Below, one piece after another: positions 32,315 to 32,670 of a stretch of DNA of 64,000 nt. Every line of letters begins with the position of its first letter. Position 1 is the first letter of the stretch. The position numbers were made by a program, and so were the translations under genes. The stretch covers positions 6,572,001 through 6,636,000 of the forward strand of contig NC_043013.1 in assembly GCF_006345805.1 (NCBI RefSeq), given 5' to 3'. The notes beneath the pieces were generated by a model, which worked only from the letters and a program-made list of their open reading frames with translations, was not told the DNA's origin and ran no database searches. The stretch comes from Octopus sinensis. Lineage: Eukaryota.

Positions 32315-32670
32315 TTATATAGAGGGCACTCTTACACAAAGATGCCTCACACTAAGAGGAACTCTTAAAGTCAAAATACTAAAATAAGTAAACACGTTGT
32401 ACCGAAACAATTTCGAAGCAAGTCATTTAGAAAAGAATTAGCCACATATCACACTGTGATTTCGTAATCAGCGCAATAATATACGCTCTTTACTCTTCAG
32501 TGTGTGCATAATTCAAGTTATATAATGAATAAATGTGGCTAAATTCTGTTTTTAAATGACTTGCTTCGAGAATTGTTTCGGTACAACGTGTTTACTTATT
32601 TTAGTAGTTTTGACTTTAAGACTCCCTCTTAGCGTCAGGCATCTATGTGTAAGAGTGCCCTCTATATAAT
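32315..32670. mobile_element. Short element with ~135-bp inverted arms enclosing a hammerhead
   Basis: TATTATATAGAGGGCACTCTTACAC..AGCCACAT (32315-32447) is the reverse complement of ~32532-32670. Confidence 0.8.
32441..32507 (-). ncRNA. Type I hammerhead ribozyme
   Basis: Minus: GCACACA-CTGAAGA-GTAA..AGCGT..GCGCT..TTAC-GAAA-TCAC-AGT-GTGA-TA-TGTGGC; complete core and all three stems. Confidence 0.75.

What the first reader, a model, noticed from the sequence alone, without database searches (positions are those of the whole stretch)
32315..32670. MITE-looking element whose spacer is a complete hammerhead
Seen: ~135-bp inverted arms with a short loop almost wholly occupied by a minus-strand HHR with canonical core and AUA cut site. 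The duplicated arm begins essentially at the predicted cleavage position (UA^UGUGGCUAA), and both ends lie in TA-rich sequence. Inference: not a DNA transposon but a Penelope-style retro-insertion whose inverted arm copies the 3' cleavage product, echoing the junction at 45285.
Basis: partly seen in the sequence, partly recalled or inferred. Interest (0 to 1): 0.72.

Follow-up and report, generated by a model that had tools for sequence, protein, structure and literature searches.

The report
Two-armed hammerhead retroelement insertion
This is one head-to-head, two-armed copy of a roughly 510-base non-coding repeat that carries a complete hammerhead ribozyme motif and was likely pasted into a TA microsatellite by Penelope-type retrotransposon enzymes; it is a known kind of element, and its self-cutting is predicted, not shown.

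Summary
Arms 32316-32446 and 32533-32668 flank an 85-nt spacer. The spacer carries, on the minus strand, the only strict hammerhead match in the window (0 hits in 100 shuffles). The inner end of the inverted arm lies within 1 nt of the predicted cut (32447|32446).

It is not a MITE. The genome holds at least 1,300-2,100 candidate copies of a ~514-nt non-coding unit. These have fixed 3' ends at two sites, variable 5' ends, partial tandems, (TA)n targets, and frequent head-to-head pairs with different inner junctions. One two-armed copy has a 14-bp target duplication.

In 24 of 25 pairs, exactly one arm carries a ~100-nt 3' "tail". This matches the published Penelope-like insertion footprint.

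The ribozyme shows compensatory changes in helices I and II. Its core is kept, while N7 and H17 vary freely.

The idea that the arm copies the 3' cleavage product is not supported as a rule: only 2 of about 86 5' ends lie at the cut.

Cleavage, circular RNA and the autonomous partner remain untested.

Earlier notes of this scan reported the same kind of element, and the two-start-site pattern, on other DNA. I judge this a new member of a known kind.

The parts
32154..32253 (.). Run of 100 N (withheld or unknown). It hides the last ~50 nt of the tail and the left boundary of the insertion, which I infer to lie near 32202.
   Evidence: In other copies the tail runs to about p248 and is then followed by (TA)n. 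The boundary position is inferred.
32254..32315 (-). First ~60 nt (p136-196) of the ~100-nt 3' tail of the direct arm. This is element sequence, not flank.
   Evidence: It aligns to the same tail in other copies. BLAST to natural copy L011 covers window 32533-32254.
32316..32446 (-). Direct arm: the part of the unit 3' of the predicted cut (p1-135), ending GTGCCCTC. Its first 13 nt form the 3' strand of helix I.
32434..32516 (-). Type I hammerhead motif. Core CUGAAGA at 32500-32494, GAAA at 32463-32460, A17 at 32447. Predicted cut between 32447 and 32446.
   Evidence: sequence. (only descriptor hit; 0 of 100 shuffles). (105.5 bits to the family model R1). (covariation).
32448..32532 (-). The 'spacer': the 5'-truncated upstream part of the direct copy (p-86 to p0). 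It holds the ribozyme core, helices II and III, and the 5' strand of helix I.
   Evidence: 5' end at about p-86.
32533..32668 (+). Inverted arm: a second, 5'-truncated copy (p0/1-135) in the opposite orientation. Its inner end lies at the predicted cut, within 1 nt.
   Evidence: It is 92.9% identical to the direct arm, and none of 61 other arms is closer to either arm.
32669..32692 (+). Tail-less (class a) 3' end of the inverted arm (TATATAATAT, p136-147), merging into the (TA)n target.

Best explanation
The locus is a single two-armed (head-to-head) insertion of a ~514-nt non-coding, hammerhead-bearing retroelement, likely made by Penelope-like (PLE) reverse transcriptase/endonuclease acting on both strands of a (TA)n target.

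Shown:
- The family has fixed 3' ends at two sites: about p147 and about p245-250 (p1 is the first base after the predicted cut).
- 5' ends are variable, and some copies are partial tandems of up to about 1.5 units.
- Flanks are (TA)n.
- Head-to-head pairs are frequent and have different inner junctions.
- The ~100-nt tail sits on exactly one arm of nearly every pair.
- The ribozyme motif lies on the sense strand of the inferred RNA intermediate.

Inferred:
- Each of the two nicked target strands primes a cDNA on the element RNA, one near p147 and one near p248, possibly on one RNA molecule.
- The two cDNAs are joined at their ends, giving arms of unequal length.
- Here the direct arm stopped at p-86 and the inverted arm at p0/p1.

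Predicted, not shown:
- The hammerhead of master copies self-cleaves after A17/C17.
- In this particular copy the 131-bp hairpin would sequester the 3' strand of helix I, so cleavage of a transcript spanning both arms is unlikely.
For: Copy number and form. The first look gives 1832, 1324 and 2103 candidates for three queries, with 40 scored each time. Most matches cover one arm plus the spacer only.

Fixed 3' ends, variable 5' ends, (TA)n flanks.

Head-to-head pairs. There are 17 among about 35 places; that set is biased, because the query was two-armed. There are 8 among 28 new places from a one-arm query.

Tail asymmetry. The tail is on exactly one arm in 24 of 25 pairs. Among single copies, 16 carry the tail, 16 lack it and 1 is unclear. 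If arms were independent the chance is about 8e-7 (my arithmetic).

Single-event origin. C6:4816036-4816529, a two-armed copy, is flanked by a 14-bp direct duplication. The window's arms are each other's nearest relatives among 61 other arms, and 5 of 19 pairs are mutual best matches.

Non-coding. The longest stop-to-stop frame overlapping a full copy (region 1195-1832 of L011) is 73 aa (69 aa for one lying wholly inside it), and no tRNA is found.

PLE machinery is abundant. GIY-YIG gives 5029 first-look candidates; 147 of 150 scored reach E<=0.001. Two of the loci I inspected have the domain near the C-terminus of frames 597-699 aa long, both cut off by the locus edge.

Ribozyme.
- Descriptor unique in the window.
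- 93.7% of pair cells form standard pairs, against 23-40% when partners are slid.
- Double changes occur at three pairs: GC13/AU8, UA17/CG6 and GC21/AU1.
- In 54 complete copies each of 11 core bases is kept in 50-54. N7 is A22/U21/G8/C3, and H17 is A32/C21/U1/G0.

Published match.
- Inverted 5'-truncated copy, pLTR, one-sided tail and (TA)n targets: PMC8557442, passages.
- A PLE protein cleaves and extends both strands and starts RT at two sites that define the tail: PMC11167929, section 3 part 2 and passages.
Against: - No autonomous partner was found. 20 GIY-YIG loci show no similarity to the unit, no canonical hammerhead by my descriptor, and no Rfam hammerhead. That is 20 of at least 5029 candidates, so the test is weak.
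- No Rfam hammerhead family matches the motif at E<=10 in the window copy or in 4 other copies.
- The catalytic fold is not the predicted minimum-energy fold. An alternative helix pairs the 5' strand of helix I plus C3-U4-G5 with helix III. It is equally conserved (94.6% paired) and of similar energy.
- The tail is ~100 nt, not the published 30-40 nt.
- Only 2 places hold two direct-orientation hammerhead matches: L014, where both are complete, and L093, where the second is a shortened 67-nt match. This is unlike classical tandem retrozymes.
- The left boundary of this copy is hidden by N.
- 5' and 3' ends were read from BLAST HSP ends and by eye (+/-3 nt), and the samples are the best-scoring candidates, not a random census.
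Confidence: 0.78

Rival explanations
1. The hammerhead cut the RNA in vivo, and the inverted arm is a full-length cDNA of the 3' cleavage product, so arms are anchored at the cut site.
For: In this copy the inverted arm ends at p0/p1. One single copy, C11:73836195, also appears to start at p1. 5' ends are somewhat dense between p-14 and p+14.
Against: - Only 2 of about 86 5' ends are at p0-p2. The local clusters sit at p-9 (helix III loop) and at p+8 to +14, not at the cut.
- Copies longer than one unit start at p-5 to p-19, p-43 or p-100. They run through the cut site of that unit or start just upstream of it.
- The base at the junction is ambiguous by 1 nt, and the site (GATAT) is itself TA-like.
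- For one PLE, published work found that ribozyme mutants did not affect insertion in vitro, and no reads ended at the cut (PMC11167929).
Confidence: 0.1
2. A DNA-transposon derivative (MITE) with ~135-bp terminal inverted repeats and a TA target duplication. The hammerhead-like spacer would be incidental.
For: This copy and a few others look like TIR elements flanked by TA-rich DNA.
Against: - Most copies have one arm only.
- Inner ends of the arms differ in every two-armed copy.
- Outer ends are asymmetric, with the tail on one side in 24 of 25 pairs.
- One two-armed copy has a 14-bp duplication rather than TA.
- 5' truncation and partial tandems are retroelement marks.
Confidence: 0.03
3. 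Two independent insertions of the family, in opposite orientation, into the same (TA)n microsatellite.
For: The family targets (TA)n, so nested or adjacent hits are expected at some rate. In several older pairs the two arms are not each other's closest relatives (for example L004, L082, L097).
Against: - Arms abut directly at their truncated 5' ends with no (TA)n between them.
- The tail asymmetry in 24 of 25 pairs is not expected from independent hits.
- One pair has a 14-bp duplication around the whole structure.
- The window's arms are mutual nearest relatives.
Confidence: 0.05
4. The hammerhead motif is a non-functional relic or look-alike. The conserved structure serves another role, for example the alternative helix or protein binding for reverse transcription, and the RNA never self-cleaves.
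For: No Rfam hit. The alternative fold is as well conserved and of similar energy. Genomic ends give no footprint of cleavage. No RNA data could be obtained.
Against: - All 11 invariant core bases are kept, while the two free positions (N7, H17) are among the most variable columns and H17 is never G.
- Compensatory changes occur in helices I and II.
- Chance expectation is below 0.01 per window.
- The alternative helix shows no double change on its helix III side except in one cell.
Confidence: 0.15

Closest known systems
Animal non-LTR retrozymes. Sources: Cervera and de la Pena 2020, PMC7229834 (passages read); Li, Clavereau and Pollet 2026, bioRxiv 10.64898/2026.07.22.740005 (abstract and passages read).
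   Same: A small, AT-rich, non-coding repeat of a few hundred nt with a type I hammerhead on the sense strand. It is dispersed in thousands of copies, and PLEs are abundant in the same genome. The preprint proposes that retrozymes are non-autonomous PLE derivatives and reports solo monomers as well as tandems.
   Different: - The unit (~514 nt) is longer than the 170-400 nt quoted.
- Copies are mostly single or partial tandems of up to about 1.5 units, not long arrays.
- Circular or linear RNA was not examined, because no RNA run was available.
- Helix III is stable (4-5 bp), and helix II is long with an internal loop.
- The cited passages do not describe inverted arms or tails.
Insertion architecture of Penelope-like elements. 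Sources: Craig et al. 2021, PMC8557442 (passages); Frangieh et al. 2024, PMC11167929 (abstract, passages, section 3 part 2).
   Same: 5' truncation, partial tandems (pLTR), an inverted 5'-truncated copy abutting the 5' end, an extension ('tail') at one end only, and AT-rich or (TA)n targets. The biochemical basis is also published: both target strands are cleaved and extended, and there are two RT start sites.
   Different: - The element has no RT/GIY-YIG ORF, so it is non-autonomous.
- The tail is ~100 nt rather than 30-40 nt.
- The near-obligate pairing of one tailed and one tail-less arm is not stated in the passages I read.
- No sequence link to an autonomous PLE was found.
[quoted passage not shown]
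   Same: A type I hammerhead carried by a PLE-type retroelement.
   Different: Metazoan PLE motifs are minimal, with helix III absent or 1-2 bp, and are thought to act as dimers. Here helix III is 4-5 bp with a 3-4-nt loop, so a monomer could fold. This is closer to the 'large helix III' variants that paper describes for fungal and protist PLEs.
MITEs of TA-targeting DNA transposons (recalled general knowledge, no call).
   Same: The superficial look of this one copy: ~135-bp inverted arms, a short spacer and a TA-rich flank.
   Different: The family has no fixed TIRs and no transposase parent was seen. The outer ends are asymmetric, the inner ends are variable, and one copy has a 14-bp duplication.
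Twin priming of L1 (5' inversions; recalled, no paper read here).
   Same: Two primers, one from each target strand, are thought to start cDNA synthesis in one insertion event, producing an inverted segment.
   Different: L1 inversions do not duplicate sequence. Here both arms contain the same 3' region and end at two different fixed 3' sites.

Membership tests
Hammerhead ribozyme, type I | Conserved core C3-U4-G5-A6-N7-G8-A9, G12-A13-A14, the A15.1-U16.1 pair, and H17 not G | tested here: met
   Sequence read. Descriptor hit. In 54 complete family copies each core base is kept in 50-54, and H17 is A32/C21/U1/G0.
Hammerhead ribozyme, type I | Three helices around the core, with helix I open-ended, supported by covariation | tested here: met
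   26 pairs are 93.7% paired, against 23-40% for slid controls. Three pairs show double changes. These reflect few subfamily-level events, so the independent support is modest.
Hammerhead ribozyme, type I | Site-specific self-cleavage after position 17 | not testable with these tools
   No RNA run holds the stretch. Genomic 5' ends give no clear footprint.
Hammerhead ribozyme, type I | Catalytic fold favoured over alternatives | tested here: inconclusive
   The hammerhead fold is not the minimum-energy fold. A competing helix of similar energy and conservation exists. Nearest-neighbour energies do not model the core.
Rfam hammerhead families (names recalled: Hammerhead_1 RF00163 and relatives) | Score at or above the family's gathering threshold | tested here: not met
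   No hammerhead family is listed at gathering for the window. None appears at E<=10 for 32255-32750 or for four other copies.
Animal non-LTR retrozyme | Non-coding repeat of a few hundred nt with a type I hammerhead | tested here: met
   Unit of ~514 nt. Longest frame overlapping a full copy is 73 aa, 69 aa wholly inside it. Hammerhead as above.
Animal non-LTR retrozyme | Head-to-tail tandem copies, so that two ribozymes can release a unit-length RNA | tested here: inconclusive
   Partial tandems are common: 7 of 28 places in the second sample. But only 2 places hold two direct-orientation hammerhead matches. In L014 both are complete. In L093 the second is a shortened 67-nt match.
Animal non-LTR retrozyme | Expressed as linear and circular RNA | not testable with these tools
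   No RNA holder was listed.
PLE-mobilised (non-autonomous Penelope-like) element | 5' truncation, partial tandems, and an inverted 5'-truncated copy at the 5' end | tested here: met
   There are 25 head-to-head pairs in about 63 places.
PLE-mobilised (non-autonomous Penelope-like) element | [quoted passage not shown] | tested here: met
   24 of 25 pairs carry the tail on exactly one arm. The tail is ~100 nt here.
PLE-mobilised (non-autonomous Penelope-like) element | AT-rich or microsatellite target | tested here: met
   (TA)n lies at most outer ends.
PLE-mobilised (non-autonomous Penelope-like) element | Sequence similarity, usually at the 3' end or pLTR, to an autonomous RT/GIY-YIG element of the same genome | tested here: inconclusive
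   None of the 20 GIY-YIG loci is similar. That is 20 of at least 5029 first-look candidates.
MITE / DNA transposon | Fixed terminal inverted repeats and a fixed-length target duplication in all copies | tested here: not met
   Most copies lack a second arm. Inner ends vary, outer ends are asymmetric, and one copy has a 14-bp duplication.

The most novel reading that the evidence does not exclude
The two arms of a Penelope-type head-to-head insertion are not two random copies. They are twin cDNAs started at two different fixed sites of one RNA, about p147 and p248, one from each nicked target strand. This family would then be a genomic read-out of how a dimeric PLE complex integrates. The one-tail-per-pair rule (24 of 25) would be the footprint, and the hammerhead would sit just upstream of both start sites.
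Probability: 0.35. Interest if true: 0.55.

Novelty: new member of a known kind. Interest (0 to 1): 0.36.

Why it matters
This shows that a MITE-like palindrome with a ribozyme in its loop is an ordinary product of Penelope-type retrotransposition. That helps annotation of invertebrate genomes, where such structures are easily misfiled as DNA transposons, hairpin RNA genes or assembly errors.

The family adds a canonical, monomer-competent type I hammerhead to the repeats that PLE enzymes appear to mobilise.

Its insertions carry a clean statistical footprint: one tailed and one tail-less arm per event. That footprint could be used to test the two-start-site mechanism seen in vitro for a vertebrate PLE. 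It does not by itself show what the ribozyme does.

Tried and rejected
- RNA evidence. The look-up of sequencing runs listed no RNA holder, only 4 small-share DNA or unknown contig runs. Nothing was laid.
- Rfam. No hammerhead hit. The miRNA and snoRNA hits there are low-complexity or hairpin artefacts below their thresholds.
- Autonomous partner. BLAST of the unit, my descriptor, model R1 and Rfam on 20 GIY-YIG loci all gave nothing. The single R1 hit (L058, 21 bits) lacks the core. A short motif search found a C-rich end followed by (TA)n in L057 and L075. This is too weak to call similarity.
- One tail per insertion, also for single copies. Only 3 of 15 tail-less single copies show a possible short inverted tail fragment above most shuffles. 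The idea is rejected as a general rule.
- Same-template test. Arms are mutual nearest relatives in 5 of 19 pairs, this one included. In older pairs the ranking is noise, so one RNA versus two RNAs stays open.
- tRNA-like head or SINE origin. ARAGORN found none.
- Pattern-based census of 5' ends at the cut. I considered it and dropped it, because exact anchors would recover too few diverged copies.
- Earlier-notes look-up. By place and by sequence it gave nothing.
- A literature look-up for cephalopod mentions in PMC8557442 failed on a badly formed term and was not repeated. The paper search for hammerhead ribozyme plus octopus listed nothing on such elements (listing only).

Full report
**1. 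What is in the window**

Bases 32316-32446/7 and 32533/4-32668 are inverted copies of each other. They are 92.9% identical over the part compared and are separated by 85 nt. A transcript of the whole region would fold into one long hairpin of -224 kcal/mol, against -71.9 +/- 5.4 for shuffles.

On the minus strand the spacer and the start of the left arm read as a type I hammerhead:
- 5' strand of helix I: 32514-32501
- CUGAAGA: 32500-32494
- helix II: 32493-32464 (4 bp, a 2x2 internal loop, then 4-5 bp)
- GAAA: 32463-32460
- helix III: 32460-32448 (5 bp with a triloop)
- A17: 32447
- 3' strand of helix I: 32446-32434

A strict descriptor that I wrote finds this site and nothing else on either strand of the 64 kb, and nothing in 100 dinucleotide-preserving shuffles. 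No Rfam hammerhead model reports the motif, at gathering score or at E<=10, here or in four other copies. Filing it as a hammerhead therefore rests on the core, the helices and their variation, not on a curated model.

The inverted arm begins at 32533/32534. That is at the predicted cut, with 1 nt of ambiguity.

**2. The family**

I count positions as p1 = first base 3' of the predicted cut.

The genome is 2.72 Gb. It returned 1832, 1324 and 2103 first-look candidates for three queries from the element; 40 were scored each time, so these are rough lower bounds. Most matches cover only one arm plus the spacer.

Alignment of single copies with their flanks, and BLAST against one long natural copy, L011, show a unit of about 514 nt:
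- about 260 nt upstream of the ribozyme;
- the ribozyme at p-57 to p13;
- 135 nt ending in GTGCCCTC;
- a further ~100-nt AT-rich 'tail'.

Copies end either near p147 (tail-less, class a) or near p245-250 (tailed, class b). In both cases they nearly always run into (TA)n.

5' ends are scattered from about p-560 to p+200. There are clusters near p-260 (unit length) and at p-76 to p-96. Some copies are partial tandems of up to about 1.5 units.

The strand with fixed 3' ends and truncated 5' ends is the strand that carries the ribozyme in sense. A full copy has no stop-to-stop frame above 73 aa overlapping it (69 aa for one lying wholly inside) and no tRNA-like part.

This is the behaviour of a non-autonomous retroelement, not of a cut-and-paste element.

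**3. The inverted arms**

Head-to-head pairs, with truncated 5' ends abutting and 3' ends pointing outwards, occur at two rates in my samples:
- 17 of about 35 places from the first two searches. This set is biased, because the query was itself two-armed.
- 8 of 28 new places from a one-arm query.

Every pair has its own inner junction, with arm ends from about p-412 to p+201. Three further copies carry short inverted internal fragments that do not reach a 3' end (L018, L009, L093). I left these out of the counts, together with two complex places (C9741, C9751).

In 24 of 25 pairs exactly one arm carries tail sequence. The exception, C6:105050870, has a full tail on one arm and 34 nt of tail on the other. 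For four arms the tail is incomplete or hidden: the window (N), L023, L084 and L104-like ends. For two arms the tail-less end is truncated at p104 and p115.

Single copies split as 16 tailed, 16 tail-less and 1 unclear. For independent arms the expectation is therefore about one half, and 24 or more of 25 has a probability of about 8e-7 (my arithmetic).

One two-armed copy (C6:4816036-4816529) is bracketed by a 14-bp direct duplication, so both of its arms entered in one event.

The window's two arms are closer to each other than either is to any of 61 other arms. Five of 19 pairs are mutual best matches.

In the window, the right arm is the tail-less one (32669-32680, then (TA)n). The left arm is the tailed one (32315-32254, then N).

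**4. Comparison with what is published**

Craig et al. 2021 (PMC8557442, passages) describe, for PLEs:
- 5' truncation;
- partial tandems (pLTRs);
[quoted passage not shown] - (TA)n as a preferred Naiad target;
- non-autonomous derivatives.

Frangieh et al. 2024 (PMC11167929; abstract, passages, section 3 part 2) report, for a purified PLE protein:
- it cleaves and extends both target strands;
- it prefers AT-rich DNA;
- it starts reverse transcription at two sites whose spacing is the tail;
- ribozyme mutants did not change insertion in vitro, and no RNA-seq reads ended at the cut.

Cervera and de la Pena 2020 (PMC7229834, passages) and Li et al. 2026 (bioRxiv 10.64898/2026.07.22.740005, abstract and passages) define animal non-LTR retrozymes and argue that they are non-autonomous PLE derivatives.

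The present family fits these descriptions feature by feature. The genome holds at least 5029 first-look GIY-YIG candidates, and two inspected loci are C-terminal-endonuclease types.

I found no sequence link to an autonomous element in 20 such loci. That is a very small sample.

**5. Is the ribozyme real?**

Among 24 copies, 93.7% of pair cells are standard pairs, against 23-40% when partners are slid. Three pairs show changes on both sides: helix I GC13/AU8, helix II UA17/CG6 and GC21/AU1. A fourth pair switches among UG, CG and UA. These are a few subfamily-level events, not many independent ones.

In 54 complete copies, aligned to the family model and therefore leaning towards it:
- each of the 11 invariant core bases is kept in 50-54 copies;
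- the free position N7 is A22/U21/G8/C3;
- the cleavage-site base is A32/C21/U1 and never G.

All columns with a frequent minor base lie in loops, bulges, N7, H17 or paired positions.

Against this, the catalytic fold is not the predicted minimum. A 7-bp helix between the 5' strand of helix I plus C3-U4-G5 and helix III is as well kept (94.6% paired) and of similar energy.

I rate a functional ribozyme in master copies as likely but unproven.

In the window copy the 131-bp hairpin would hold the 3' strand of helix I.

**6. The cut-site coincidence**

I curated about 86 5' ends by hand from HSP ends and junction sequences, with an accuracy of +/-3 nt.
- Two lie at p0-p2: this copy and C11:73836195.
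- Six lie at p-5 to p-14. Most of these are in the loop of helix III.
- Six lie at p+8 to p+14.

Copies longer than one unit start just upstream of a cut site, or run through it.

The arms are therefore anchored at their 3' ends, not at the cut. The genomic record gives no clear sign that cleaved RNA is the usual template. For this copy, chance or AT microhomology at GATAT is at least as likely as a cleaved template.

**7. Mechanism proposed, and what is inferred**

Shown: the architecture and its statistics.

Inferred:
- A PLE enzyme nicks both strands of a (TA)n tract.
- One 3' end primes cDNA near p248 and the other near p147, possibly on the same RNA. That would explain why a pair holds one end of each kind.
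- Both cDNAs stop at arbitrary points and are joined.

Predicted: self-cleavage after position 17. Its role is open; processing of tandem or read-through transcripts, or circularisation, are possibilities.

**8. Relation to earlier notes of this scan**

After I had derived the architecture and the one-tail rule, a look-up by words showed that earlier agents had reported hammerhead repeats with the Penelope footprint. Some of those reports mention arms starting at two fixed sites. They concern other DNA of this genome and other genomes.

Those notes agree with my reading but are not independent evidence. No note covers this family by sequence.

**9. Verdict**

I judge this a new member of a known kind, of moderate interest. 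The main value lies in the clean two-start-site footprint.

Noticed in passing
window 44101-46024: A different repeat family lies here as a tandem-plus-inverted complex between two (TA)n runs (43911-44102 and 46018-46205). One outer end stops at ...CCTTAATTGTTAA next to (TA)n. The other outer end runs about 95 nt further, giving the same one-sided tail architecture.
   Followed up: partly
family copies: C11219:8288, C6:84351111, L023:1699, L002 (C15:16191258), L099:1642, L080:2140: There is a small hot spot of 5' ends inside or next to the helix III loop (about p-9, range p-5 to p-14). It is seen in six independent copies and remains unexplained. It is not at the predicted cut.
   Followed up: partly
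window 32512-32448 (minus strand) and all 24 copies of alignment A1: An alternative 7-bp helix pairs the 5' strand of helix I plus C3-U4-G5 with helix III. It is kept in 94.6% of cells, partly through G-U pairs. It could be an inactive conformer that regulates cleavage, or a by-product of the near-palindromic helix III.
   Followed up: partly
window 32120-32153; also the left flank of C10:6393275 (L015/L045) and upstream of L024: The start of another repeat (GGCGCAGGAGTGGCTGTGTGG...) lies next to TA-rich DNA at three places, and here it runs into the N stretch. It is likely a SINE-like family that also lands in (TA)n. It was not analysed.
   Followed up: no
window 4615-5751 (-) and 16092-17357 (-): Two open frames match reverse transcriptase RVT_1 (E = 7.5e-31 and 2.5e-32). 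They are probably LINE-type elements unrelated to the finding.
   Followed up: no
L057:1062 (+) and L075 (minus strand, about 1480): Next to GIY-YIG-bearing PLE copies, an element end reading ...GTGAATTCTCCC is followed by (TA)n. This resembles the C-rich-then-TATATA end of the present family (GTGCCCTC then TATATA). The resemblance is too short to call homology.
   Followed up: partly
L014 (C18:27725324-27726982): A head-to-head pair whose right arm is a 1.5-unit tandem with two complete hammerheads. The arm is interrupted by a ~244-nt insertion of another short repeat.
   Followed up: partly
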